Source of the DNA: Synechococcus sp. A15-28
GTDB taxonomy: Bacteria; Cyanobacteriota; Cyanobacteriia; PCC-6307; Cyanobiaceae
DNA length: 32,000 nt
Direction: 5' to 3'
NCBI RefSeq assembly: GCF_014280175.1
Contig: NZ_CP047931.1
Location: 60,001 to 92,000, forward strand
Shown: in pieces, positions 5,711 to 31,423 of the stretch
How the letters are laid out: each line of letters opens with the position of its first letter
Numbering within the stretch: the first letter of the stretch is position 1
Made by a program: the position numbers and the translations under genes
The notes under the pieces: model-generated
What the model was told of the DNA's origin: nothing
Seen by the model: only the letters and a program-made list of their open reading frames with translations
Databases searched by the model: none

Positions 5711-7711
5711 ATGGCTAACAACGCACGATCCGCCAAGGAACAGGAGCCTTGTCTCCGGGTGATTCCCCTGGGGGGATTGCATGAAATCGGTAAGAACACC
5801 TGTGTGTTCGAGTACGGCGACGATCTGATGCTGGTGGATGCCGGTCTGGCGTTTCCAAGCGATGGCATGCACGGCGTGAATGTGGTCCTGCCGGACACCA
5901 GTTTTCTGCGGGAGAACCAAAAACGCATCCGCGGCATGATCGTGACCCACGGTCATGAAGATCACATCGGTGGCATCTCCCACCACCTCAAGCACTTCAA
6001 CATCCCGGTGATCTACGGGCCCCGTCTGGCCCTGTCGATGCTCACCGGAAAGATGGACGAGGCCGGCGTCAGCGACCGCACCACGCTCCAGACCGTCAGT
6101 CCTCGCGACGTGGTGAAGGTGGGTCAGCACTTCTCGGTGGAGTTCATCCGCAACACCCACTCGATGGCGGACAGCTACTCGCTGGCCATCAAGACTCCGG
6201 TGGGAACAATCATTTTCACCGGTGATTTCAAGTTCGATCACACCCCGGTCGACGGCGAGCATTTCGACATGGCCCGGCTGGCCCACCACGGTGAAGAGGG
6301 TGTGCTGTGTCTGTTCAGTGACTCCACCAACGCTGAAGTGCCTGGCTTCTGCCCCCCTGAGCGTTCGGTGTTCCCCAATCTCGATCGCCACATGGCGTCT
6401 GCCGAGGGCCGGGTGATCATCACCACCTTCGCCAGCTCGATCCATCGGGTGTCGATGATCCTGGAACTGGCCCTGAAGAACGGCCGCAAGGTAGGCCTGC
6501 TGGGCCGCTCGATGCTCAATGTGATCGCCAAGGCCCGCGAGCTGGGTTACATGCGTGCGCCGGACGAACTGTTCGTGCCGATCAAGCAGATTAACGATGT
6601 TCCCGATCGTGAAACCCTGCTGCTGATGACCGGCAGCCAGGGAGAGCCCCTAGCGGCGTTGAGTCGGATCTCCCGCGGCGAGCATCCTCAGGTGCGGGTG
6701 AAGACCACCGACACGATCATCTTCTCGGCCAGCCCGATCCCCGGGAACACCATTTCCGTGGTCAACACCATCGACAAGTTGATGATGTTGGGCGCCAAGG
6801 TGGTCTATGGCAAAGGCGAAGGCATTCACGTCTCCGGCCATGGCTTCCAGGAGGACCAAAAGCTGATGCTGGCCCTCACCAAGCCCAAGTTCTTTGTGCC
6901 GGTGCACGGTGAGCACCGCATGCTGGTGCAGCACTCCAAGACCGGTCACGCCATGGGTGTGCCGGAGAACAACACCCTGATCATCGACAACGGTGATGTG
7001 GTGGAGCTGACGCCGGATTCGATTCGTAAGGGGGATCCGGTGAAGGCCGGCATCGAGCTGCTGGATCAATCCCGCAATGGCATTGTTGATGCTCGTGTGC
7101 TCAAGGAGCGTCAGCAGCTGGCGGAAGACGGTGTGGTGACGATCCTGTCGGCCATCAGCACCGATGGCGCGATGGTGGCGCCGCCAAGGGTGAACCTGCG
7201 CGGGGTGGTGACCACCGCCGATGCCCGCAAGATGTCGCTCTGGACCGAGCGCGAGATCACCTGGGTGCTGGAGAACAAATGGAAGCAGCTCTGTCGCCAC
7301 ACCGGAGGCAAGGCGCCGGAGGTGGATTGGATGGGTGTGCAGCGTGAGGTGGAAGTGGGCCTCGGCCGTCGTATGCGACGTGAGCTGCAGGTGGAGCCGT
7401 TGATCCTCTGCCTGGTGCAGCCCGCTCCCGGTGGCACACCTGTTTACAAGGGTCGCGCCGATGCCGAACCCGACGATCGTCCGGCTCCCCGTGGTCGCCG
7501 TGGTGGCGGCGGACCCGGTCGCAGCAACAATGGTCAAGGGCGCAATACACCCGCCCCCGTGCGCACCAATACCGCTCCGGCACCAGCACCGGCAGCGGCA
7601 ACGGCTGTGGTGGAGAAGCCCGACGCCCAGAAAGCTGTCGCATCCAAGCCGGAGCCGGAGCCGGAGATGCCGGCCGGTCGTACCCGCCGTCGCCGCTCTG
7701 CGGCGGCCTGA
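5711..7711 (+). CDS. rnj: ribonuclease J (metallo-beta-lactamase/beta-CASP family) with a ~96-aa Pro/Ala/Arg-rich C-terminal tail
   Basis: HGHEDHIGG (HxHxDH) motif, beta-CASP region and an RNase J-type C-terminal domain. The low-complexity tail runs 7421-7708 and ends GRTRRRRSAAA. Confidence 0.92.
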   Translation: MANNARSAKEQEPCLRVIPLGGLHEIGKNTCVFEYGDDLMLVDAGLAFPSDGMHGVNVVLPDTSFLRENQKRIRGMIVTHGHEDHIGGISHHLKHFNIPVIYGPRLALSMLTGKMDEAGVSDRTTLQTVSPRDVVKVGQHFSVEFIRNTHSMADSYSLAIKTPVGTIIFTGDFKFDHTPVDGEHFDMARLAHHGEEGVLCLFSDSTNAEVPGFCPPERSVFPNLDRHMASAEGRVIITTFASSIHRVSMILELALKNGRKVGLLGRSMLNVIAKARELGYMRAPDELFVPIKQINDVPDRETLLLMTGSQGEPLAALSRISRGEHPQVRVKTTDTIIFSASPIPGNTISVVNTIDKLMMLGAKVVYGKGEGIHVSGHGFQEDQKLMLALTKPKFFVPVHGEHRMLVQHSKTGHAMGVPENNTLIIDNGDVVELTPDSIRKGDPVKAGIELLDQSRNGIVDARVLKERQQLAEDGVVTILSAISTDGAMVAPPRVNLRGVVTTADARKMSLWTEREITWVLENKWKQLCRHTGGKAPEVDWMGVQREVEVGLGRRMRRELQVEPLILCLVQPAPGGTPVYKGRADAEPDDRPAPRGRRGGGGPGRSNNGQGRNTPAPVRTNTAPAPAPAAATAVVEKPDAQKAVASKPEPEPEMPAGRTRRRRSAAA

Positions 7712-8407
7712 TCAGCCCCGCCCGATCAGGGCCAGCAGCTGTTGAATCCATGACGAACGGGGAGGGTCGCTGTTGACCGTCCCCGCTTTGACCTCGCCGA
7801 GATTGATCTTGACCCGCAGCAGACTGCCGGCGAGTACCTCTCGGGGATCCTCCTCAGCGAAGTCGGGTTCAGCCTCGTCGTTGTCGGGTTCAGCGGTGGG
7901 TTCCAGGTTTGGTTCCGGCAGCAGTTCCGCGTCGAGGATGGGAATCTCTGTCGGCGCGGGCGAGGGTTCGGGATTGGTCGGCTCCAGCCAGGGCATGGCT
8001 GTCGCTTTGGACCCGGCCTGTTGATCCGTCAGAAACGGATCCCGCAGCATCTCCGGCAGTGGTTGCCGAGATCGGATCGGTTGGGCTGGTGCCGTGTTGC
8101 TTTGACGGCTGCGTTCAAGCCCCTGCTGTGCCAGTTCCGCCAGGGTGTCCTGCGGTTGGCTGGCCAGCACCTGTTCGTAATAACCAGCCGCTTGACTGGG
8201 ATTGTCGTGGCCATAGAGCTCGATGTGGCCGAGCAACAGCGCCACAAAGGCGCGCCAGCCGAGCACGGCGGCCTGGGCGTCCAAATCCTGGGGTTGGTCC
8301 ACCAGTTGGTCCAGCAGATTGCTGGCCAGGCGCTGGGCTTCGGTGTAGTCGCCCTCGCTGTAGGCCCGTTCGGCGTCCTGATACTGCTGCTGGAAATCGC
8401 CGTCCAC
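7712..8407 (-). CDS. conserved hypothetical protein: TPR-like helical N-terminal half, acidic Pro/Glu-rich C-terminal half
   Basis: Coding-looking ORF with helical-repeat-like segments (AERAYSEGDYTEAQRLASNLL, AAGYYEQVLASQP) and a PEP-rich low-complexity stretch. The track start at 8536 would overlap the lysC 3' end by 95 nt, so I use the GTG at 8407 (VDGDFQQQ...). The start is uncertain. Confidence 0.55.
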   Translation of the reverse strand: MDGDFQQQYQDAERAYSEGDYTEAQRLASNLLDQLVDQPQDLDAQAAVLGWRAFVALLLGHIELYGHDNPSQAAGYYEQVLASQPQDTLAELAQQGLERSRQSNTAPAQPIRSRQPLPEMLRDPFLTDQQAGSKATAMPWLEPTNPEPSPAPTEIPILDAELLPEPNLEPTAEPDNDEAEPDFAEEDPREVLAGSLLRVKINLGEVKAGTVNSDPPRSSWIQQLLALIGRG

Positions 8408-22976: not shown

Positions 22977-23048
22977 GCGGATGTAGCTCAGTGGTAGAGC
23001 ATCTCCTTGCCAAGGAGAGGGTCGAGAGTTCGAATCTCTTCATCCGCT
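22977..23048 (+). tRNA. tRNA-Gly (anticodon GCC)
   Basis: Hand-folded cloverleaf:
- acceptor GCGGATG/CATCCGC
- D arm GCTC-AGTGGTA-GAGC
- anticodon arm TCTCC-TTGCCAA-GGAGA (anticodon GCC)
- T arm GAGAG-TTCGAAT-CTCTT (one G-U pair)
- discriminator T; no encoded CCA. Confidence 0.93.
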
Positions 23049-23177: not shown

Positions 23178-24356
23178 TTGAATCTTGCTGATTCAAAAAC
23201 AGCACCTTCAAAATTAACTGCAAAGCAAAAAGCAGGAGATTTTGCTAACAAGTGGTTTGAACGCAACAGATCACTTGTCCTTAGGCAAACACCCTTTTGG
23301 GCTCAAAGCCTGGCAGCAATTTTAATATCCCTCGGTACTTTGAGTATTGTTGGGGGACTTATTTTTAGAATTGACGAGGTCGTCACTGTTACAGGCCAAC
23401 TTAAGTCGATCGGTGGAACTTTTGAGGCAGAGACTCCTGCGGGAGGTCGGATATCAGATGTTTTAGTTAGTAATGGTGATATAGTGGAAGCCGGAACTAT
23501 TCTCGTCAAATTCGATACGAGAAAAGCTGCTAAAGAAAAAGCAACACTAGAGAAGCTAATAAAACTGGAAAAGCTTGAATTGGATTCTCAGCTCAAAACA
23601 TTGAATAGCCAAAAGCTCACTGTTCAGAATAAACAAAATATTTTGGTAAAAAAATTAGATACCAAAACGTTAATTGCTGACGAAATGAAAACTTTGGTTG
23701 AAGTGGGTGGATATCAAAAAATTCAGTACTTGTCACAACTAGACCAGATCTTTGAGTTGAAAGGACAGATCTCTGATATGAACCAACAAATTTCTCGTAT
23801 AGAACTTCAATCCGATCAAATTACTTTGAGATCTAAGAAATCAATTGACCAAATGAACACAAGATTAAACGAAATTAAACTTCAACTTCAATACCAAATT
23901 GTTAAGGCTCCATCTTCTGGTGTGGTTTTTGATTTGAAAGCATCAGAAGGGTCTGTTATGCAACCTGGCGAGAGGATAGTTTCTATTGTGCCTCAGAAAG
24001 GATTCTATGCTGAAATATTTGTCCCTAATCAAGACATAGGCTTTATCAAGCCAGGTCAGTCTGCAAAAGTTCGTGTAGATGCCTTCCCTTTTACCAGATA
24101 CGGTGAGATTGATGGAGAAGTCGATACTATTGGAGCAGATGCCTTAGAGCCTGATAATATAAGGGAGTATTATAAATTTCCAGTTACGCTTTCATTAACG
24201 AAAAATTATCTCGAATCGAAGGATGTTCGAATCCCCTTAAAGTCTGGCATGTCAATCACCACTAATTTAAAATTGCGTGATAAGCGAGTTATTAGCCTTT
24301 TAAGTGATCTTTTAGTCGACCAGACAGATAGCGTTAAAAGCATTCGTCAACAGTAA
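23178..24356 (+). CDS. HlyD-family membrane fusion (periplasmic adaptor) protein of a type I secretion-like exporter
   Basis: Single N-terminal TM segment (SLAAILISLGTLSIVGGLIF), a lipoyl-like hairpin (VTVTGQLKS...GDIVEAGTILVKFD), a long coiled-coil middle, and a C-terminal beta-barrel ending GMSITTNLKLRDKRVISLL. It starts at a TTG with no upstream in-frame ATG. Confidence 0.85.
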   Translation: MNLADSKTAPSKLTAKQKAGDFANKWFERNRSLVLRQTPFWAQSLAAILISLGTLSIVGGLIFRIDEVVTVTGQLKSIGGTFEAETPAGGRISDVLVSNGDIVEAGTILVKFDTRKAAKEKATLEKLIKLEKLELDSQLKTLNSQKLTVQNKQNILVKKLDTKTLIADEMKTLVEVGGYQKIQYLSQLDQIFELKGQISDMNQQISRIELQSDQITLRSKKSIDQMNTRLNEIKLQLQYQIVKAPSSGVVFDLKASEGSVMQPGERIVSIVPQKGFYAEIFVPNQDIGFIKPGQSAKVRVDAFPFTRYGEIDGEVDTIGADALEPDNIREYYKFPVTLSLTKNYLESKDVRIPLKSGMSITTNLKLRDKRVISLLSDLLVDQTDSVKSIRQQ

Positions 24357-25081
24357 TGAACTCTGATTTAATTGATCCCTTGCCGCATGAGTGGATTACT
24401 TCTTCTCGATCTCAATACTTAACTACTTTTATTAATCCACTTGGTGCAATTTTAAAAGATTCAGGTGCTCTTGAGTCAGTTTTGTCTTACTGGATCGTTG
24501 ATGAAATTATATTTGAATATAATGTCAAACATAGTAATTTTAAGTTCTTGACTGATAAAAAGTCTGATCCTTTTGATCAATCGCAAAGCAATGAAGATCA
24601 AAAATATTCAAGGTTAGACACTATACTTCTTTGGTCTAAAGATAAGTGGTATCATCGTGTTGAAACATTATACCTTGAAAATAAAGATAAGTTAGATTTG
24701 ATTAGCTTTAAAATGATTAGAGTGAAGAGCAAAGAATTTGCCTACGAGATTTACCATCGTTTAAAAGCAGATGAAGCTAGCTTTGAGGAATTGTCTTTAC
24801 GCTATGGACAAGGCCCTGAAAAAAGAATCGGGGGCAAATGCAAAATCCAAACATCTGAGTCGATACCAAAAATCTTAGTAGAATCTGTCAAGAAATCATC
24901 TCAGGGTGATATTCTTAAGCCTATCCCCTATGGTAAGCAATTTGCAGTCATCGAATTTGATCAATGGCAGTCAGCCCAACTGGATGAAAAGACGGAATCA
25001 ATTCTGTTGCAAAGCGAATTTGAGAGCTGGTCAAAATCTATTATAAATTACATTTTAAATCATATCTTAATTTTAAATTGA
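24356..25081 (+). CDS. small protein with C-terminal parvulin (PpiC-type rotamase)-like domain, probably degenerate
   Basis: Residues ~115-205 (ISFKMIRVKSKEFAYEIYHRLKADEASFEELSLRYGQGPEKRIGGKCK...GDILKPIPYGKQFAVIEF) follow the parvulin pattern (HILV..A..i...l..G.dF..lA..yS......GG.lG.......G.is.P......G.hii). The first conserved His position is not His. Start and stop overlap both neighbours. Confidence 0.55.
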   Translation: MNSDLIDPLPHEWITSSRSQYLTTFINPLGAILKDSGALESVLSYWIVDEIIFEYNVKHSNFKFLTDKKSDPFDQSQSNEDQKYSRLDTILLWSKDKWYHRVETLYLENKDKLDLISFKMIRVKSKEFAYEIYHRLKADEASFEELSLRYGQGPEKRIGGKCKIQTSESIPKILVESVKKSSQGDILKPIPYGKQFAVIEFDQWQSAQLDEKTESILLQSEFESWSKSIINYILNHILILN

Positions 25082-28041
25082 CTATCATGATTGAAGGAAT
25101 TATTAAGAAACTTTCTTCTCAGCATCCTTATGACAAGCTTGAATCTACGCAAAGAGATTTCTTATTTGCAAATTCTGAACTAGTCAGATATAGACCTGGA
25201 GAGCTTATATTGAGACCTGACGAATTACCTAGTCAATTAGTACTAGTTCTTGATGGAGCCGTAAGGTTACTCTCAAACTCGCCAACTGATGATCAAGATG
25301 TAGTTACTTTAGATATCCGCGGTTCTGGTCAGCTCATAGGTTGGTCTTCATTGTTGCGTGCAGGATCTTGTGAATGGGTTATAGCTTCTCAAGAAACTAC
25401 TGTTGTCAGGTTCGGGGCGTCAAATTTTGTTAGTACGATAATTTCCTCTCAGGTGTTTAGAGAATTCTTTGGTGAGCTTTCCAATATCCATGAATCAATT
25501 TATGTTTTACGACAAATATTTAAATCAAAGTATAAGCTTGCCGAGGGTGCTTTTAAAAACTACTCGGAAATTGTACAAAATGTTCGTGTTATCAGCCTGA
25601 TGCCAGGTTGTAAGTTTAGCTATAAAGACAGTGATTATGAATGGTTTTTAAGTACAGAAAATGTTCCTTCGTTACCCGTTGGTAGTAAAATTGATAACGG
25701 CGACGAGCTAAACGTTAAAGAAGGTTTTAATCTGCCATACAGATTGGTTGGCTTTAGCCTGAAAGTCGATAAGGGTATTGGAAATAATTTAGCTTCGCCG
25801 CATAATGCTGTTATAAATAACTTCGATCTTGAAAGTAAGCCTGGATCTTCTCTCTCTAAATTAGGGATAATTGAAAATGAATCGTTAGAGCTGGAAGATA
25901 AGTTTCCAGCCATCAAAGGCTTCGGTCCTTTGAAAGAAGCCTTGGCTGCGGTGGAAATGGTTGCACTAATGGAGAAAACACCTTTCAAAAGAGATATACT
26001 TGAAAAAATATTAGAAGAACAATTTCGCAGAAATAAGCCATTGTCTTTAGAACTTCTTGCTCGCCTTTGTGAACTTCTTGGATTAACGTGTCAAATAGGT
26101 GGAGTCAATACGAAATATATTGACAGTATTGAACTTCCCTCCCTTATGATGTATGAGGATGTTCCAATTGTTGTTTACTCATTTGTTGGTAAAAAAGCCT
26201 TAATTGGCCATCCGCATAACGGGATTACTAAGGTCGATATAGATGATTTCATAAATAAACTACCTGAGAAATGTCGCTTTGCCACCCCTAAAAGAATTGG
26301 AAGTACGCCCAGAAGTAAGTTTGGATGGAATTGGTTTACACCTCTACTCAGTAAATATAAAAAAGCTTTAACACTGGTTTTTGTTTCTTCATTGCTCGCT
26401 CAGTTGTTTGGCCTTGGTGTTCCGCTTCTAATACAACAAATTATTGATAAAGTCCTTAGTCAGGGAAATTTAAGTAGTCTCAATGTACTTGGCGGGACAA
26501 TGATAGTGCTCGCACTTTTCCAGGGTATCCTTACAGCATTGCGTACATACATATTCGTTGATACAACCGATCGGATGGATTTGACACTTGGAAGCGCAGT
26601 AATTGATCGCTTATTAGCACTCCCTCTTGGATTTTTTGAAAAAAGACCTGTAGGTGAATTAAGCCAAAGAATAGGAGAACTCAACACAATTCGCGGATTC
26701 TTGACCGGCACTGCGTTAGTAAGCGTGTTAAATATAATATTTGCTTCGTTATACTTGGTGGTCATGATAATATACTCGCCTCTTCTGACTGCAGTTAGTT
26801 TAAGCACTTTGCCTGTCTACTTTCTAATTGTTTTTGTTGTAGCCCCTATATATAAGGGTCTTATCCGAAAAAGAGCTATTGCACAAGCAAAAACTCAAAG
26901 TCATCTTATTGAGGTGCTAGGTGGTATTCAAACTGTCAAAGCGCAACACTTTGAGTTAACTGCTAGATGGAAATGGCAAGATCGCTACAGACAATTTGTC
27001 AATGAAGGCTTTAAGAGTGTTGCTCTGGGAACAACCTCAGGAGTAATAGGTTCCTTTTTGAATCAATTAAGCAGTCTATTAGTCCTATGGGTTGGAATGT
27101 GGCTTGTTCTTGAAGGAGAACTCACACTAGGTATGTTGATTGCTTTTAGAATTATAAGCGGAAATGTTACTAATCCTTTGTTGCAACTTTCTGGCCTTTA
27201 TCAAGGTTTTCAAACTGTGCAATTGGCTATGGAGCGACTTTCGGATATTTTGGATCAAAATCCTGAACTTTCTAATGAAGATGATTTAAATCAGATATCG
27301 TTGCCCCCAATTGTTGGTTCTATTAGATATGAAGATGTCTGTTTTAGGTTTGGCAAAAATGGTCCTTATCAGGTAGACAAAGTTTCTTTGTCTATTGCAG
27401 CTGGAGACTTCATCGGAATTGTGGGTCAGAGTGGTAGCGGAAAAAGTACACTTGTTAAATTACTTCCGAGGCTCTATTCTCTTAATCAAGGTAGATTGTT
27501 TATAGATGATTACGATATTGAAAAAGTCAATCTTTCGAGTTTGAGGAGGCAAATAGGAATTGTCCCCCAAGATTCACTTTTGTTTGAGGGTACTGTAGCT
27601 GATAATATAGCCTTGAATGACCCTCAAGCTACTAATGATTCAATAATTGCAGCCGCAAAAATTGCTTGTGCTCATGATTTTATTATGAGTTTAGGACAAG
27701 GTTATGCTACTCCTCTCTCTGAGAGAGGTAGTAACCTTAGTGGTGGGCAACGTCAAAGAATTGCGATAGCAAGAACTATTCTTTCAAATCCTAGACTACT
27801 TATTATGGATGAAGCTACAAGTGCACTTGATTACAATACTGAGAAACAGTTGTGTGCTAATCTTCAAAGTTGGGCTCAAGATCGTACAGTACTTTTTATT
27901 ACACATCGCCTAAGCACTATTCGTAATAGTGACCTTATTCTTGTTATGCATGAGGGAAGACTTGTTGAACAAGGCAGTCATCAGCAACTAATGGATCTTG
28001 GAGAGAGATATTGCGCATTATTTAAGCAACAAGGAAATTAA
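25078..28041 (+). CDS. ABC exporter (fused TMD-NBD) with N-terminal cNMP-binding-like domain and catalytically inactive C39-like domain
   Basis: - Residues ~25-125: CAP/cNMP-type beta-barrel pattern.
- Residues ~276-400: C39-peptidase-like fold pattern without the catalytic Cys or His.
- Six-TM ABC_membrane region.
- NBD with Walker A GQSGSGKST, signature LSGGQRQRIAIAR and Walker B LLIMDEATSALD.
- Start is either TTG at 25078 (overlapping the upstream stop) or ATG at 25087. Confidence 0.88.
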   Translation: MTIMIEGIIKKLSSQHPYDKLESTQRDFLFANSELVRYRPGELILRPDELPSQLVLVLDGAVRLLSNSPTDDQDVVTLDIRGSGQLIGWSSLLRAGSCEWVIASQETTVVRFGASNFVSTIISSQVFREFFGELSNIHESIYVLRQIFKSKYKLAEGAFKNYSEIVQNVRVISLMPGCKFSYKDSDYEWFLSTENVPSLPVGSKIDNGDELNVKEGFNLPYRLVGFSLKVDKGIGNNLASPHNAVINNFDLESKPGSSLSKLGIIENESLELEDKFPAIKGFGPLKEALAAVEMVALMEKTPFKRDILEKILEEQFRRNKPLSLELLARLCELLGLTCQIGGVNTKYIDSIELPSLMMYEDVPIVVYSFVGKKALIGHPHNGITKVDIDDFINKLPEKCRFATPKRIGSTPRSKFGWNWFTPLLSKYKKALTLVFVSSLLAQLFGLGVPLLIQQIIDKVLSQGNLSSLNVLGGTMIVLALFQGILTALRTYIFVDTTDRMDLTLGSAVIDRLLALPLGFFEKRPVGELSQRIGELNTIRGFLTGTALVSVLNIIFASLYLVVMIIYSPLLTAVSLSTLPVYFLIVFVVAPIYKGLIRKRAIAQAKTQSHLIEVLGGIQTVKAQHFELTARWKWQDRYRQFVNEGFKSVALGTTSGVIGSFLNQLSSLLVLWVGMWLVLEGELTLGMLIAFRIISGNVTNPLLQLSGLYQGFQTVQLAMERLSDILDQNPELSNEDDLNQISLPPIVGSIRYEDVCFRFGKNGPYQVDKVSLSIAAGDFIGIVGQSGSGKSTLVKLLPRLYSLNQGRLFIDDYDIEKVNLSSLRRQIGIVPQDSLLFEGTVADNIALNDPQATNDSIIAAAKIACAHDFIMSLGQGYATPLSERGSNLSGGQRQRIAIARTILSNPRLLIMDEATSALDYNTEKQLCANLQSWAQDRTVLFITHRLSTIRNSDLILVMHEGRLVEQGSHQQLMDLGERYCALFKQQGN

Positions 28042-28258
28042 TTGACAGAAATATCCTAAGGGTTTAAAAGCTGCTATGAATAATAATGGCGTAAATCATT
28101 AATCGTTAAGGGAATTATATATAAACATGTCATTAACTTAAGGCTGATATTGATCAAGCCTGGTTGATGTTGATTGTGAAAGGTGTCTTCGAGCTGCACG
28201 TCCCACAATTCCTCGACAAGGGGATATTGAGTGATGATGAAGAGTGAAGAACAAGCAA

Positions 28259-28290
28259 TAAAACCCCCTCTCTTTCTAAGAGAGAGGGGG
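28259..28290 (-). terminator. rho-independent terminator (distal, unit 1 copy)
   Basis: Perfect 10-bp stem CCCCCTCTCT (28264-28273) / AGAGAGGGGG (28281-28290) with a 7-nt loop. On the minus strand it is followed by TTTTATT. Confidence 0.8.
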
Positions 28291-28430
28291 CGAAATCAAT
28301 CAATGATTGATCAGTCTGATATTGATCAAGCCTGGTTGATGCTGATTGTGAAAGGTGTCTTCGAGCTGCACGTCCCACAATTCCTCGACAAGGGGATATT
28401 GAGTGATGATGAAGAGTGAAGAACAAGCAA

Positions 28431-28460
28431 TAAAAACCCCTCTCTGAGAAAGAGAGGAGG
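28431..28460 (-). terminator. rho-independent terminator (unit 2 copy)
   Basis: 9-bp stem CCCCTCTCT (28437-28445) pairing with AGAGAGG-A-GG (28451-28460, one bulged A) and a 5-nt loop. On the minus strand it is followed by TTTTTA. Confidence 0.7.
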
Positions 28461-28603
28461 GGGCGGAATCAATCAATGATTGATCAGTCTGATATTGATC
28501 AAGCCTGGTTGATGCTGATTGTGAAAGGTGTCTTCGAGCTGCACGTCCCACAATTCCTCGACAAGGGGATATTTAGTGATGATGAAGAGTGAAGAACAAG
28601 CAA

Positions 28604-28636
28604 TAAAAAAACCCCCTCTCTTAGAAAGAGAGGGGG
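28604..28636 (-). terminator. rho-independent terminator (proximal, unit 3) downstream of the Ca-binding-repeat protein gene
   Basis: Perfect 10-bp GC-rich stem CCCCCTCTCT (28612-28621) / AGAGAGGGGG (28627-28636) with a 5-nt loop. On the minus strand it is followed by TTTTTTTATT. Confidence 0.85.
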
Positions 28637-28673
28637 AGTTGTATCAATCAATGATTGATCAGGCTGATATTGA

Positions 28674-30089
28674 TCAAGCCTGGTTAATCTCGATTGTGAA
28701 GGAAGAACCTGCTCCCGCGTTAGTACTCAGACCAGTGATGGTTCCACCAATAGTGTTGGAGAACTTGGTAACGATGTCGTCGTTAGTACCACCCTGAACG
28801 AAGAGGTACACAGAGCTAGCATCGCTGCCAGTGAAGACGGCGTACTGTCCTTCGGTTGACAGCAATGCATCAACCTTAGAGATGCGATCAGAAACTGCGC
28901 TTACGCTGCTGAATGTAGCAACACCCGAGGCGATAGTTGCAGAGTTGAGGCTTGGAACACCAGCGGTTTCGGCAGAGCCAAGACCAACCATTGCGATGTT
29001 GAAGGTAACACCACCGGTTGCTCCAGTAACGTCAGTGTTGGAGAACGTGACGATGTCCATGCCATCGGCCGTTGAATCGCTGAAGTCAGCGAAGCCAATG
29101 GTTTGACCCATTGTAAAGCCGGTATCAGCCAGGTCAGAACTGAAGGTGATGCTGTCAGCACCAAGACCACCAATAACAGTACCGAAGGCACCACCAGTGG
29201 TTGCATCAATGTTGAGAGAATCAGCTCCACCACCGAGGTTGACCCGGGTGCCGGTGAATGCACCAGCAACAACGACAGAACCGGTCATGACAATTGTGTC
29301 TTGACCAGCACCACCGCCGATGGTGACGTTGGTGTCAGCGGAGAATTGGTCGTCGATAACGATGCTGTCGTTACCGGCATTGCCTTGGATCAAGGAAGAA
29401 GCAACAAGCTGACTTCCGTTCTCAATGGTGATGATGTCATTACCACCCAGGCCCTTGATGACAGCAGAACCAGCTGTGATTTTCAGACTGAGTGTGTCGT
29501 TGCCGTCGACAGTGTTATTGGTGTCATCCAACAGGATCTGCAGACTGTTCGCGTTGGCAACGCCAGAAATGGTAACGCTGTCGTTGCCGCCGCCGCCAAC
29601 GATCAGGGCAGACACCAAGTGAGCGTCGTTGTCAAACGTCATGGTGTCGTTACCGGCACCAAGAGCGATCTTTGAGGCAGAACCGGAAATGACAGCGCTA
29701 GCAATAATGCTGTCAGCTCCAGCACCACCAGCGAGAGTTCCTGCAATGACACCAGCTGAAAATGTGACGGTGTCGCTGCCGTCGCCTAATTTTGTAACAC
29801 CATCAAAGTGGGAATTGTGGCTGACGATTTTGTCGCCACCAGCACCTGCAATGATTGTAGCGTCATCGAAGTCAGCTGCACTAGCGGTGAAAACGTCGGC
29901 GCCACCAGCCAGATCAACGTAAAACGAGCTGGCGGAAGCTACAGGTCCGTCAACTACTTGAAGAGTGTCATTGCCGGCGAAGCCGTAAATTGTAGACGCG
30001 CTAACAGCTCCTGTATTTACCAGGAACAGCTCCGCGTCATCGGTCCCCGTAGCCACCTGGCCCGCGGAGTTGATCAGATAGTTAGCCAT
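28674..30089 (-). CDS. secreted/surface Ca-binding-repeat (RTX-like, GGxGxD motif) protein, 471 aa; putative T1SS substrate, SwmA/S-layer-like
   Basis: 13 motifs of the G-x-(G/A)-x-D-(T/S)-(I/L/V) type: GFAGNDTL, AGGADVF, GAGGDKI, GDGSDTV, GAGADSI, GAGNDTM, GGGNDSV, VDGNDTL, LGGNDII, NAGNDSI, GAGQDTI, GGGADSL, GLGADSI. The protein has no Cys or Trp and very few Lys or Arg, and is rich in G/A/S/T/D/V. There is no N-terminal signal-peptide-like segment, consistent with C-terminal-signal secretion. Confidence 0.8.
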   Translation of the reverse strand: MANYLINSAGQVATGTDDAELFLVNTGAVSASTIYGFAGNDTLQVVDGPVASASSFYVDLAGGADVFTASAADFDDATIIAGAGGDKIVSHNSHFDGVTKLGDGSDTVTFSAGVIAGTLAGGAGADSIIASAVISGSASKIALGAGNDTMTFDNDAHLVSALIVGGGGNDSVTISGVANANSLQILLDDTNNTVDGNDTLSLKITAGSAVIKGLGGNDIITIENGSQLVASSLIQGNAGNDSIVIDDQFSADTNVTIGGGAGQDTIVMTGSVVVAGAFTGTRVNLGGGADSLNIDATTGGAFGTVIGGLGADSITFSSDLADTGFTMGQTIGFADFSDSTADGMDIVTFSNTDVTGATGGVTFNIAMVGLGSAETAGVPSLNSATIASGVATFSSVSAVSDRISKVDALLSTEGQYAVFTGSDASSVYLFVQGGTNDDIVTKFSNTIGGTITGLSTNAGAGSSFTIEINQA

Positions 30090-30130
30090 GAGAAGAGGAG
30101 AGGGTGATCAATTTTTGAGACACCGCAGTG

Positions 30131-30159
30131 AATCTATGCGGGTGGCCTACACATGTCAA
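30131..30159 (-). promoter_or_regulatory. candidate sigma70-type promoter for the Ca-binding-repeat protein gene
   Basis: On the minus strand: TTGACA (30159-30154), a 17-nt spacer, then TAGATT (30136-31). This predicts a leader of ~35 nt to the ATG at 30089. The -10 hexamer contains the TAG stop of the upstream glycosyltransferase ORF. Confidence 0.45.
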
Positions 30160-31423
30160 CGGATATATGGCCAGATGCAGATGAGACACACCCTGGTTTG
30201 CTGGAAGGAGGGCAAAAAGGCTCGGATATAGTACAATTATACTTGTTATAAATGTTATTTACAAGTTTTTTCCATCTTTTCAGGCATGATTTAATTGAAT
30301 AGGTATCATTAGAGGGGCGTATTCGCTCACTATCTTTGTAACTTTCTTCTTTTATTAATTTGACGACAGAACTAGCTAATTCACCTGGTTTTCGGTGGTC
30401 GATTCTAACCACATTTTCAAAACTTCTTGTAAATTCTGTCACTGGCTTAACATCACTTACGATCATCGGATTATTAATATATAAACTTTCAACTAAACTC
30501 CAGCTCGCTACAAATGGATGCGTTAGGTAAATATGACACCATGAAGATCGCAACCAATTTCTATATGCATCTCCTTGCAAAAAACCAACCCAATTTACAT
30601 TGTTGCTAATATTATGTTTTTCTAGATACATTTCAGCCCAGTTTTTCCAGGTACCTTCTACCGGTTTCATACCTCCGTAGCTGCATCTATCATTACCTGC
30701 AATTTCAATAGTGACTGAAGGCACCTTTTTTACAATCTCGGGGATTTCCCTTATAAATTGCGGAAAACATCTCATCGGTTCCATGCCTCTTGTACCGTAA
30801 GTGATCTTTGGCGTTTCTGATATAAATTTTTGGTCGTTTTGAAAATAATCTGTGTCAACCCCGTCAAAAATGACTTGGCATTTTTCTGCAAAAATCTTCG
30901 GAAGTTGCTCCATCTGCCACAAGGTAGGAGCCACTATATTGTCTGCATGAGAAAGTTCTAGAGCTATATTTTTGTTTCTCAGCCAATATTTACGGACAGC
31001 ATCTTCGCCTATCCTTAATTCCTTATTGGTGTTATCATACCAAAAAAAATCTGACTCCTGATTAAACCACCATTCTAAATAACTTATTTGTTTGCATTTC
31101 GGCCATATTTCTTTGATGTGTAATCCGCAACCCCAAGCAGAATGAGAAATTACGATATCAGGGTAATAATTTTTTTCTTTTAATTTTACAAATGCGGTGC
31201 GATACATTTCACCCATCTTGTCTGCACGTTCAGTAAGTCCAAGACTTTGATTTTCCAAGGTCTCGTGGCTCAGGCTGCCTTTCAAACATATGCGATCGAC
31301 TCCCTTGAGTCTTCTTCCAAAGTGCGTCTGGCATAGAAATTTAATTTCATTCTTTTCTGCGAAGTATTTTGCGACATGTTTGAACTGACCTGGAAAATTT
31401 GGGTGAAGGAAAAGAATTTTCAT
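30134..31423 (-). CDS. GT-B fold glycosyltransferase (group 1 / GT4-like)
   Basis: N-terminus MKILFLHPNFPGQFKHVAKYF and C-terminal block HIYLTHPFVASWSLVESLYINNPMIVSDVKPVTEF match a widespread GT4-like family (E-x7-E-type region). The ATG at 31423 is preferred over the GTG at 31432. The last ~30 codons lie in a GC-richer segment. Confidence 0.75.
   Translation of the reverse strand: MKILFLHPNFPGQFKHVAKYFAEKNEIKFLCQTHFGRRLKGVDRICLKGSLSHETLENQSLGLTERADKMGEMYRTAFVKLKEKNYYPDIVISHSAWGCGLHIKEIWPKCKQISYLEWWFNQESDFFWYDNTNKELRIGEDAVRKYWLRNKNIALELSHADNIVAPTLWQMEQLPKIFAEKCQVIFDGVDTDYFQNDQKFISETPKITYGTRGMEPMRCFPQFIREIPEIVKKVPSVTIEIAGNDRCSYGGMKPVEGTWKNWAEMYLEKHNISNNVNWVGFLQGDAYRNWLRSSWCHIYLTHPFVASWSLVESLYINNPMIVSDVKPVTEFTRSFENVVRIDHRKPGELASSVVKLIKEESYKDSERIRPSNDTYSIKSCLKRWKKLVNNIYNKYNCTISEPFCPPSSKPGCVSSASGHISVDMCRPPA

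What the first reader, a model, noticed from the sequence alone, without database searches (positions are those of the whole stretch)
28142..28695. 172-174-bp tandem array duplicating the gene 3' end, a palindrome and an intrinsic terminator three times between convergent operons
**What each unit contains (minus strand)**
- A copy of the last ~8 codons plus stop of the repeat-protein gene: FTIEINQA* in the real gene, FTINISQA*/FTININQA*-like in the copies.
- A 17-bp palindrome.
- A GC-rich hairpin followed by a T-run.
- About 85 nt of spacer.

**What varies**
- The stems are conserved, while the loops differ (TTCTAAG, GAGAA, TAGAA).
- Unit length varies by single nucleotides and is not a multiple of 3. 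Selection therefore appears to act on RNA structure, not on coding.

**Hypotheses**
- A fail-safe triple terminator protects the convergent ABC exporter gene (stop at 28041) from read-through of a very highly expressed gene.
- The units are remnants of a former tandem family of paralogous genes sharing the same C-terminal secretion-signal end.
- The units encode 3'-UTR-derived structured RNAs or sRNAs.
Basis: seen in the sequence. Interest (0 to 1): 0.75.

Follow-up and report, generated by a model that had tools for sequence, protein, structure and literature searches.

The report
Triplicated terminator module after surface-protein gene
The end of a secreted surface-protein gene in a marine Synechococcus, together with its transcription stop signal, has been copied head-to-tail three times, and similar copying has arisen separately in related lineages, most likely to keep transcription out of the oppositely oriented exporter genes.

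Summary
The array is real. It spans 28141-28700 on the minus strand: three units of 175, 173 and 172 nt plus a 40-nt partial fourth (TRF score 959). Each unit holds the last 8 codons and stop of a 471-aa RTX-like gene, an 8-1-8 palindrome, a canonical intrinsic terminator and an 85-nt spacer. The organism is Synechococcus sp. A15-28.

The main new result is comparative. The orthologous, syntenic gene carries its own tandem duplication of the 3' end plus terminator in five other lineages. Unit lengths are 82-195 nt and left boundaries lie 5-130 nt into the coding sequence, so these are independent events. Two further lineages keep two terminators; stems and T-run of the second are conserved between them while its loop diverged. 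Local direct repeats in 111 kb of these loci cluster at this gene's 3' end (P about 5e-7).

Best reading: in-situ amplification of the terminator module at a duplication-prone site, acting as stacked one-directional terminators that shield the convergent type I secretion operon. Distal copies decay in some lineages, so selection is plausible, not proven.

The paralogue-remnant, sRNA and small-peptide readings found no support. The differing loops do not show selection on RNA structure: one is a hairpin-loop inversion and no change is compensatory.

The parts
28141..28700 (-). Whole tandem array: three full units plus a 40-nt partial fourth unit
   Evidence: TRF period 173, 3.2 copies, 94% matches, score 959; self-BLAST E = 6e-171; unit dissection
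28526..28700 (-). Unit 1 (175 nt). It holds the real last 8 codons and stop (FTIEINQA*), the palindrome, terminator 1 and the 85-nt spacer
28353..28525 (-). Unit 2 (173 nt). It holds a gene-end copy reading FTISINQA*, the palindrome, the weakened terminator 2 and the spacer
28181..28352 (-). Unit 3 (172 nt). It holds a gene-end copy reading FTISINQA*, the palindrome, terminator 3 with an inverted loop, and the spacer. Outside the hairpin region it is identical to unit 2
   Evidence: (pair I2)
28141..28180 (-). Partial unit 4 (40 nt). It holds a gene-end copy reading FTININQA* and 13 nt after the stop, then unrelated AT-rich DNA
   Evidence: (40 nt, 92.5% identity)
28605..28636 (-). Intrinsic terminator 1: 11-bp GC-rich stem, loop of 3, then T7
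   Evidence: dG -19.3; the 91-nt stretch that also contains the palindrome folds with z = -5.1 against shuffles
28432..28459 (-). Intrinsic terminator 2: 9-bp stem, loop of 5, then T5
   Evidence: dG -12.4
28260..28291 (-). Intrinsic terminator 3: 10-11-bp stem, 7-nt loop that is the reverse complement of the terminator 1 loop, then T4
   Evidence: dG -18.5
28643..28659 (.). 8-1-8 palindrome ATCAATCA-T-TGATTGAT, copy 1
   Evidence: 6 strand matches against 0.06 expected
28468..28484 (.). 8-1-8 palindrome, copy 2
28295..28311 (.). 8-1-8 palindrome, copy 3
28674..30089 (-). Gene for a 471-aa Ca-binding beta-roll (RTX-like) repeat protein, the presumed type I secretion substrate. Its 3' end seeds the array
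   Evidence: 100% identical to a Synechococcus sp. A15-28 protein; GGxGxD-type repeats conserved across the family; profile hit to the MpAFP beta-helix 3p4g, E = 3e-7; GC3 0.53 against 0.28-0.34 in neighbouring genes
30131..30159 (-). Near-consensus promoter TTGACA-17-TAGATT in front of the repeat-protein gene
   Evidence: 10 of 12 matches; TTGAC-type -35 and a CT-rich leader visible upstream of most orthologues (by eye)
25078..28041 (+). Convergent HlyB-type type I secretion ABC exporter with an N-terminal cNMP-binding domain. It is the last gene of the HlyD, PPIase-like, ABC operon (23178-28041)
   Evidence: Pfam; TIGR01846 649 bits and TIGR01843 for HlyD

Best explanation
The array is an in-situ tandem amplification of the terminator module of a strongly promoted gene for an RTX-like type I secretion substrate.

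**How it arose (inferred).** A first duplication copied a segment of about 173 bp. The segment ran from 27 nt inside the coding sequence, through the stop codon, an 8-1-8 palindrome and the Rho-independent terminator, to 85 nt beyond the terminator. Unequal crossing-over or slippage then raised the copy number to at least four. A later deletion probably truncated the last unit.

**What it does (inferred).** RNA polymerase leaving the gene meets three consecutive one-directional intrinsic terminators before it can run antisense into the convergent HlyD, PPIase-like, ABC exporter operon that presumably secretes this protein.

**Why it recurs (inferred).** This gene's 3' end is a recurrent duplication site across marine Synechococcus. 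Extra terminator modules arise often, are kept for a time because they reduce read-through, and can later decay.

**Shown here:** the anatomy, in-situ amplification, recurrence in other lineages, and conservation of a second terminator in one sister pair.

**Not shown:** termination activity, the expression level of the gene, the selective benefit, and the cause of the hotspot.
For: **Anatomy and in-situ origin.**
- The anatomy is confirmed.
- The spacer-to-gene-end junction is identical in all three copies. u2 and u3 are identical outside the hairpin region. Both points indicate amplification in place.

**The terminators act in one direction.**
- T-runs follow the hairpins only on the minus strand.
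- No plus-strand terminator is predicted between the ABC stop codon and the array.

**The locus is conserved.** The order GT4, repeat-protein gene, then convergent cNMP-ABC, PPIase-like and HlyD genes is shared by the other lineages.

**Independent duplications of coding 3' end plus terminator in other lineages.**

| Locus | Period (nt) | Copy identity | Left boundary from stop |
|---|---|---|---|
| L028 | 137 | 100% | -27 |
| L030/L031 | 128 | 80% | -63 |
| L033 | 195 | 86% | -130 |
| L034 | 82 | 90% | -5 |
| L036 | 89 | 2.2-2.7 copies | -22 |

**A second terminator under constraint.**
- L001 and L024 carry two terminators, T1 and T2. The T2 module aligns with the post-stop plus T1 module better than any of 2000 shuffles.
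- Between L001 and L024, the T2 stems and T-run are unchanged while 5 of 7 loop bases differ and the flanks differ by about 30%.
- In L036 the hairpin and T-run of copies 1 and 2 match apart from one T in the run. The coding-derived 24 nt differ at 7 positions (Fisher P = 3e-4).

**Clustering.** Seven of eight local direct-repeat families in 111 kb fall in the 9.5% of sequence around this gene's 3' end (P = 5e-7).

**Promoter.** A near-consensus promoter precedes the gene, and a TTGAC-type -35 is visible upstream of most orthologues.
Against: - No transcript data exist. Terminator 1 (dG -19.3, T7) may already stop nearly all transcription, which would leave units 2 and 3 idle.
- Distal copies have lost the hairpin or the T-run in L030, L033 and the third copy of L036. 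L029 has a single terminator in 966 nt. The extra copies are therefore not universally maintained.
- There are no compensatory base-pair changes within the array. Its copies are so recent that conservation says little.
- High expression is inferred only from the promoter consensus and from a GC3 value between those of the island genes and the core genes.
- Two of the comparative cases (L028, L034) sit at contig ends.
- No close relative with an assembled array was found, so copy-number variation is unknown.
Confidence: 0.55

Rival explanations
1. The array is a neutral by-product of a mutational hotspot. Stable GC hairpins, CT and homopolymer runs, heavy transcription and possibly head-on replication conflicts make this 3' end prone to short tandem duplications. 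The extra copies do nothing and simply decay.
For: - Different boundaries and unit lengths in each lineage, with decayed distal hairpins in L030, L033 and the third copy of L036.
- A single terminator in L029.
- Within the array the hairpin region is the most variable part, with a loop inversion and run-length changes, as expected of a fragile site.
- Another tandem repeat that does not involve the gene end lies in the same intergenic region of L024 (period 246).
Against: - The second terminator's stems and T-run are conserved between L001 and L024 although its loop and flanks diverged.
- In L036 the terminators of copies 1 and 2 match apart from one T in the run, although the coding-derived part differs at 7 of 24 positions.
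- All three A15-28 hairpins are still terminator-grade.
Confidence: 0.3
2. The units are footprints of allele replacement. The hypervariable surface-protein gene is swapped by horizontal transfer with one illegitimate joint. Each swap leaves the previous allele's 3' end and terminator downstream of the incoming gene, and later amplification adds copies.
For: - The array's gene-end copies (atcaGcatc, atcaAcatc) are closer to the gene end of the 90%-identical relatives L004 and L027 (atcaCcatc) than to A15-28's own gene end (atcGAGatT).
- Divergence between the gene and its copies is concentrated in the coding-derived part.
- The family is highly divergent at a syntenic locus.
Against: - Junctions are identical in all units of A15-28 and of L036. 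This requires in-situ amplification, not serial independent insertions.
- The pattern is explained equally well by fast evolution of the functional gene's last codons after a local duplication.
Confidence: 0.07
3. Each unit is or yields a small RNA: a 3'-UTR-derived or independently transcribed sRNA of about 90-170 nt ending at its own terminator, in the manner of the NsiR1 tandem array.
For: - Every unit ends in a terminator.
- A weak NsiR1 hit lies over terminator 1.
- The stretches that contain a palindrome and a terminator fold better than shuffles.
Against: - The NsiR1 score is 23.1 bits against a threshold of 39, E = 0.52.
- No promoter-like site lies in any unit on either strand.
- The spacer does not fold better than shuffles on the minus strand (z = -0.35).
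- Units in other lineages share no sequence with this one.
Confidence: 0.04
4. The units are small peptide genes on the plus strand. Each would encode a 38-aa peptide, MIDQSDIDQAWLMLIVKGVFELHVPQFLDKGILSDDEE, lying downstream of the ABC exporter operon and in the same orientation, like tandem bacteriocin or RiPP precursor genes.
For: - An ATG-initiated ORF recurs in the units on the exporter's strand.
- A GGAGG-like stretch, the purine arm of the hairpin, lies about 12 nt upstream of the ATG.
Against: - A chimeric query made of translated array reading frames matched nothing among 5.8 billion proteins, even at E up to 10.
- There is no Pfam or NCBIfam hit.
- The peptide has no double-glycine leader.
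- Repeated units in other lineages carry no corresponding ORF.
- The only difference between ORF copies is non-synonymous.
Confidence: 0.02
5. The array is an assembly artefact, or it is a set of decayed tandem paralogous genes.
For: - Short-read assemblies often mis-handle 173-bp repeats.
- Contigs of close relatives break exactly at the start of the array.
Against: - Each unit has its own private differences. Diverged duplications of the same kind occur in independent assemblies, L030 with L031 and L036 with L037.
- The spacer has no coding-remnant signal, and its boundary with the gene-end copy is sharp and identical in every unit.
Confidence: 0.02

Closest known systems
Tandem Rho-independent terminators, such as E. 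coli rrnB T1-T2 and engineered double terminators (from my own knowledge)
   Same: Consecutive GC-rich hairpins with U-tracts follow a strongly transcribed unit and give additive termination and insulation from neighbouring genes.
   Different: Here the terminators are near-identical copies made by duplicating a 173-bp block that includes the gene's last 8 codons. There are three of them. The stacked state has arisen repeatedly by separate duplications in related lineages.
Intergenic minisatellites or VNTRs, such as mycobacterial MIRUs (from my own knowledge)
   Same: Head-to-tail units of about 50-200 bp lie in an intergenic region that abuts or overlaps the upstream gene's stop codon. Such arrays tend to vary in copy number and to break assemblies.
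   Different: MIRUs are a dispersed family found at many loci and carry short ORFs linked to the flanking genes. This unit is derived from its own gene, is locus-specific, and was not found elsewhere in the window or in the collections searched.
NsiR1 tandem sRNA array of Nostoc/Anabaena (Rfam RF02399)
   Same: It is a cyanobacterial tandem array in which every unit ends in an intrinsic terminator. It is the only Rfam family with any score here.
   Different: The score is far below the threshold (23.1 against 39 bits) and covers only the hairpin. NsiR1 units each have their own promoter, and none is detectable here.
REP/BIME-type 3' palindromic elements (from my own knowledge)
   Same: Repeated palindromic structures lie just after stop codons and can stabilise the upstream mRNA and modulate termination.
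   Different: REP elements are short, genome-wide dispersed families, often in alternating orientation. This is a direct-repeat amplification of a single locus.
Small hairpin-loop inversions, well known in plastid non-coding DNA (from my own knowledge)
   Same: The loop of terminator 3 is the reverse complement of the loop of terminator 1, between unchanged inverted-repeat stems.
   Different: This explains only the loop differences, not the array itself.

Membership tests
Rho-independent (intrinsic) terminator | GC-rich stem-loop immediately followed by a T/U-tract on the transcribed strand | tested here: met
   Three minus-strand sites with 9-11-bp stems and T4-T7 tails. Hairpin dG -19.3, -12.4 and -18.5.
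Rho-independent (intrinsic) terminator | Lies downstream of a stop codon in the direction of the gene | tested here: met
   Terminator 1 starts 38 nt after the stop of the 28674-30089 (minus strand) gene. Orthologues have a terminator 12-47 nt after the stop.
Rho-independent (intrinsic) terminator | Transcripts actually end there | not testable with these tools
   Needs Term-seq or 3'-RACE.
Tandem repeat / VNTR minisatellite | Head-to-tail copies of one unit | tested here: met
   TRF period 173, 3.2 copies, 94% matches.
Tandem repeat / VNTR minisatellite | Copy number varies among strains | tested here: inconclusive
   Contigs of the closest relatives (L004, L027) stop at the first branching base of the array. 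No relative with an assembled array was found.
NsiR1-like tandem sRNA genes | Match to the family covariance model at the gathering score | tested here: not met
   23.1 bits against 39, E = 0.52.
NsiR1-like tandem sRNA genes | Own promoter in every unit | tested here: not met
   No sigma-70-type site inside 28141-28700 on either strand. Only this consensus type was scanned.
Dispersed palindromic elements (REP/BIME, MITE-like) | Many copies at unrelated loci | tested here: inconclusive
   No other copy of the palindrome or spacer in the 32-kb window. The spacer is absent from IMG/VR, and the whole array has no match in phage records. The rest of the A15-28 genome could not be searched.
Decayed tandem paralogues | The unit retains coding-sequence similarity upstream of the shared gene end | tested here: not met
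   The spacer peptide scores -0.1 bits against the family's C-terminal HMM, and 421 of 1000 shuffles do at least as well.
Bacteriocin/RiPP precursor gene array | Recognisable precursor family or leader, conserved ORF | tested here: not met
   No Pfam or NCBIfam hit. No homologue in 5.8 billion proteins. No ORF in the units of other lineages.

The most novel reading that the evidence does not exclude
Stacking of terminators by repeated duplication is an adaptive, convergently evolved solution at this locus. In many marine Synechococcus lineages the gene for a secreted RTX-like surface protein independently multiplies its own terminator module to insulate the convergent operon that exports it. 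Terminator copy number would then be an evolvable trait with turnover by birth and death, rather than junk.
Probability: 0.35. Interest if true: 0.6.

Novelty: new variant of a known kind. Interest (0 to 1): 0.45.

Why it matters
- **Natural evidence on terminator redundancy.** Tandem terminators and intergenic minisatellites are both familiar. A terminator module, with a piece of coding sequence attached, duplicated independently in at least six lineages at one orthologous gene is not a pattern I know to be described. If selection maintains the extra copies, this would be natural evidence that read-through between a secretion substrate gene and its convergent exporter operon is costly, and that duplication is the usual route to stronger termination in Rho-less cyanobacteria.
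- **A possible natural hotspot.** If selection does not maintain the copies, the locus marks a natural duplication hotspot. It could be used to study instability linked to transcription and replication.
- **Practical points.** The arrays may contribute to the fragmented metagenome assemblies at this hypervariable surface-protein locus. They could also serve as strain-typing markers.

Tried and rejected
- **Genome collection scan.** An earlier attempt with a broader alignment failed outright.
- **Metagenome DNA scan.** The gene-end and post-stop 20-mer gave one true relative, L027, whose contig ends at the array, and one chance hit, L026.
- **Exact-protein look-up.** The A15-28 protein is not on record.
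- **Search for array ORFs elsewhere.** A chimeric query of all translated array frames against 5.8 billion proteins gave no hit at E up to 10.
- **Phage and viral collections.** Nothing was found with BLAST against phage records, the IMG/VR pattern scan or the IMG/VR protein scan.
- **Paralogue-remnant idea.** An apparent L-S-x-N-x-G-x-x-S-S match between the spacer translation and the real C-terminus scored no better than shuffles. By my own count, nucleotide identity there is about 33%.
- **A 55-nt, 100% identical 'duplication' of the ABC gene end in L030.** It flanks a 100-N scaffold gap and was discarded as an artefact.
- **Intergenic regions of different lineages.** They share no sequence beyond generic hairpin similarity, so no cross-lineage RNA model could be built.
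- **Literature searches.** Searches on tandem terminators, on collisions between replication and transcription, and on Synechococcus exoproteomes gave nothing specific to this locus.
- **GC skew.** The profile in the window is too noisy to settle whether the gene is head-on to replication.
Full report
**1. Observation**

The reported array exists.
- Tandem Repeats Finder gives one long-period array at 28144-28700: period 173, 3.2 copies, 94% matches, score 959. Nothing comparable occurs elsewhere in the 32 kb.
- Read on the minus strand it consists of u1 (28700-28526, 175 nt), u2 (28525-28353, 173 nt), u3 (28352-28181, 172 nt) and a 40-nt partial u4 (28180-28141). AT-rich DNA follows.
- u1 begins with the true last eight codons and stop of the ORF at 28674-30089 (minus strand), FTIEINQA*. 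The copies read FTISINQA* twice and FTININQA* once.
- Each full unit also carries the 8-1-8 palindrome ATCAATCA-T-TGATTGAT. It gives 6 strand matches against 0.06 expected.
- Each full unit has a GC-rich hairpin followed by T7, T5 or T4. The simple scan scores all three as terminator-like. Their energies are -19.3, -12.4 and -18.5 kcal/mol.
- Each full unit ends in an 85-nt spacer that differs at one position among the three copies.

**2. Context**

- The gene product is 100% identical to a protein of Synechococcus sp. A15-28. This is a clade III strain that lacks swmA and swmB (PMC7522525).
- The protein is a 471-aa repeat protein with GGxGxD-type motifs. Its family profile matches a Ca-bound beta-helix adhesin domain, 3p4g, at E = 3e-7.
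- Convergent with it lies an operon of a HlyD-type adaptor, a PPIase-like protein and a 987-aa HlyB-type ABC exporter with a cNMP-binding domain. Upstream lies a GT4 glycosyltransferase.
- The block is low-GC (0.36-0.44 against 0.59-0.71). It begins just after a tRNA-Gly gene.
- The repeat-protein gene has GC3 of 0.53, between its neighbours (0.28-0.34) and the three high-GC core ORFs sampled (0.77-0.82).
- It has a near-consensus promoter, TTGACA-17-TAGATT. A TTGAC-type -35 and a CT-rich leader are visible upstream of most orthologues.
- The hairpins have a T-run only on the minus strand. No plus-strand terminator is predicted between the ABC stop codon and the array.

**3. How the array arose**

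- The junction between the spacer and the next gene-end copy is identical in all three cases. u2 and u3 are identical outside the hairpin region. This indicates amplification of one unit in place, not separate remnants.
- Homology to the gene begins abruptly at TTCACAATC. The in-frame translation of the spacer scores no better against a profile of the family's C-termini than 421 of 1000 shuffles. The paralogue-remnant idea is therefore rejected.
- Differences among units cluster in and beside the hairpin. They are of mutational types typical of such sequence: run-length changes in C, CT and T runs, and a flipped loop. The u3 hairpin read on the plus strand matches the u1 hairpin read on the minus strand (25 nt, 96% complementary).
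- There is no compensatory pair.
- The gene-end copies (atcaGcatc, atcaAcatc) are closer to the real gene end of the 90%-identical relatives L004 and L027 (atcaCcatc) than to A15-28's own (atcGAGatT). The functional gene's last codons therefore changed, or were replaced, after the duplication.

**4. The comparative result**

The locus is syntenic in metagenomic and single-genome contigs from many lineages. Nine lineages have at least 100 nt of DNA downstream of the gene. Six of them carry a tandem duplication of the coding 3' end plus terminator, and each copy matches its own gene.

| Lineage (locus) | Period (nt) | Copy identity | Left boundary from stop | Note |
|---|---|---|---|---|
| A15-28 (window) | 172-175 | 94% | -27 | three intact terminators |
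| P0012 (L028) | 137 | 100% over 40 nt | -27 | contig ends inside copy 2 |
| P0015 (L030, L031) | 128 | 80% | -63 | two assemblies; second hairpin decayed |
| P0030 (L033) | 195 | 86% | -130 | second hairpin kept, T-run lost |
| P0045 (L034) | 82 | 90% | -5 | contig ends inside copy 2 |
| P0056 (L036) | 89 | 88-90% | -22 | NCBI assembly GCA_003210795.1; TRF 2.2 copies, a third copy decayed |

- The different boundaries and unit lengths mean these are independent events.
- Two further related lineages, L001 and L024, have two non-identical terminators. The second module aligns with the post-stop plus T1 module better than any of 2000 shuffles.
- Between L001 and L024 the second terminator's stems and T-run are unchanged, apart from one inserted base. 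Five of seven loop bases differ, and the flanks differ by about 30%. By my own calculation, at 30% divergence the chance of no substitution in 21 positions is about 6e-4.
- Only L029 shows a single terminator.
- As a control, seven of eight local direct-repeat families in 111 kb of window plus loci lie in the 9.5% of sequence around this gene's 3' end (P = 5e-7). One apparent repeat at the ABC gene end of L030 flanks a scaffold gap and was discarded.

**5. Interpretation**

The most economical reading has two parts.
- **A hotspot.** This 3' end is a duplication hotspot. I infer the cause to be a stable hairpin with slippery runs at the end of a strongly transcribed gene that meets a convergent operon, perhaps aggravated by conflicts between replication and transcription.
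- **A function.** The product, stacked one-directional terminators, is useful because read-through would make antisense RNA against the exporter operon.

Support for function:
- The conserved second terminator in L001 and L024.
- The near-identical terminators in L036, although the coding-derived 24 nt differ at 7 positions (Fisher P = 3e-4).
- All three A15-28 hairpins remain terminator-grade.

Against function:
- Distal copies have decayed in three lineages.
- One lineage has a single terminator.
- There are no transcript data of any kind.

I put the functional reading at about 0.55 and a purely neutral hotspot at about 0.3.

**6. Other readings**

- **sRNA genes.** The only Rfam signal is NsiR1 at 23.1 bits against a threshold of 39. 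No promoter-like site lies in the units. The spacer does not fold better than shuffles on the minus strand.
- **Plus-strand small peptides.** A 38-aa ATG ORF recurs on the exporter's strand. It has no homologue in 5.8 billion proteins and no family hit. Repeated units in other lineages have no counterpart.
- **Allele-replacement footprints.** This could explain the first duplication and the ancestral-looking gene-end copies. The identical junctions require in-situ amplification afterwards.
- **Assembly artefact.** This is unlikely because each unit has private differences, and similar diverged duplications occur in independent assemblies.

**7. Limits**

- No close relative with an assembled array was found. 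Contigs of the 90%-identical lineage end exactly where the A15-28 copies first differ. That fits an array there, but it also fits strain heterogeneity.
- Copy-number variation, expression level, termination efficiency and orientation relative to replication remain untested.

**8. Verdict**

- The fail-safe terminator idea is partly supported by comparative evidence.
- The other two hypotheses are not supported.
- The structure is a new variant of known things: tandem terminators and intergenic minisatellites. Its unusual feature is recurrent independent origin at one orthologous gene.

Noticed in passing
window 22977-23048 and about 23000 onward: GC content falls from about 0.6 to about 0.37 immediately after a tRNA-Gly(GCC) gene, so the secretion and surface-protein block is a low-GC island next to a tRNA. 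The gene order of the block is nevertheless shared by many metagenomic lineages.
   Followed up: partly
homologue list; L003, L004, L025, L027, L032: Dozens of metagenomic homologues sit on contigs of about 1.45-1.6 kb, barely longer than the gene. Assemblies therefore break at both ends of this gene. Several contigs end within 5-70 nt of the stop codon. This fits 3' repeats, strain hypervariability, or both.
   Followed up: partly
L024 7600-7933; similar sequence in L001 about 7640-7940: A second, unrelated tandem duplication (period 246, 82% identity) lies further into the same intergenic region. It carries a recurring motif of the form agataattga...atatagata(a/g)cttccaaga. It may be an unannotated element or a small RNA gene.
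   Followed up: no
L030 7138-7237: A run of 100 N (a scaffold gap) is flanked by a 55-nt exact repeat of the ABC gene's 3' end. This is a scaffolding artefact that mimics a duplication.
   Followed up: yes
window 28181-28217, 28353-28389, 28526-28562 (minus strand): The end of the spacer and the start of the next gene-end copy form an inverted repeat, ATTGTGGGA...TTTCACAAT (dG -9.9), that straddles each duplication junction. It could be chance or could relate to how the duplication formed.
   Followed up: no
window 30090-30130 (minus strand) and the upstream regions of L001-L036: A TTGAC-type -35 box is visible upstream of most orthologues. A GGTGT motif near the likely transcript start and a pyrimidine-rich leader (ctcttcc, ccctctc) without a Shine-Dalgarno sequence are each seen in many of them.
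   Followed up: no
stop codons of window 28674-28676, L025, L030, L034 and near that of L028: The stop codon is often embedded in TGATC, a GATC site. The post-stop region often contains short AT-rich inverted repeats of the form TGAT...ATCA. The 17-bp palindrome in A15-28 is the most developed case.
   Followed up: no
window 24356-25081 and 25078-28041: The type I secretion operon has two unusual components. A PPIase-like gene lies between the HlyD and ABC genes (weak Rotamase and TIGR04500 hits), and the ABC exporter has an N-terminal cNMP-binding domain. Both features recur in other lineages.
   Followed up: no
L033 4290-4309: The functional gene carries an in-frame 9-nt tandem duplication (TGGAACTGC, 2.2 copies) that is absent from its downstream pseudo-copy. 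This is another sign of slippage-type change at this 3' end.
   Followed up: no
window 30134-30230 (minus strand): The GT4 ORF is 432 aa, against 391-402 aa in most orthologues. Its low-complexity C-terminal tail runs over the promoter of the repeat-protein gene and ends 44 nt before that gene's ATG.
   Followed up: no
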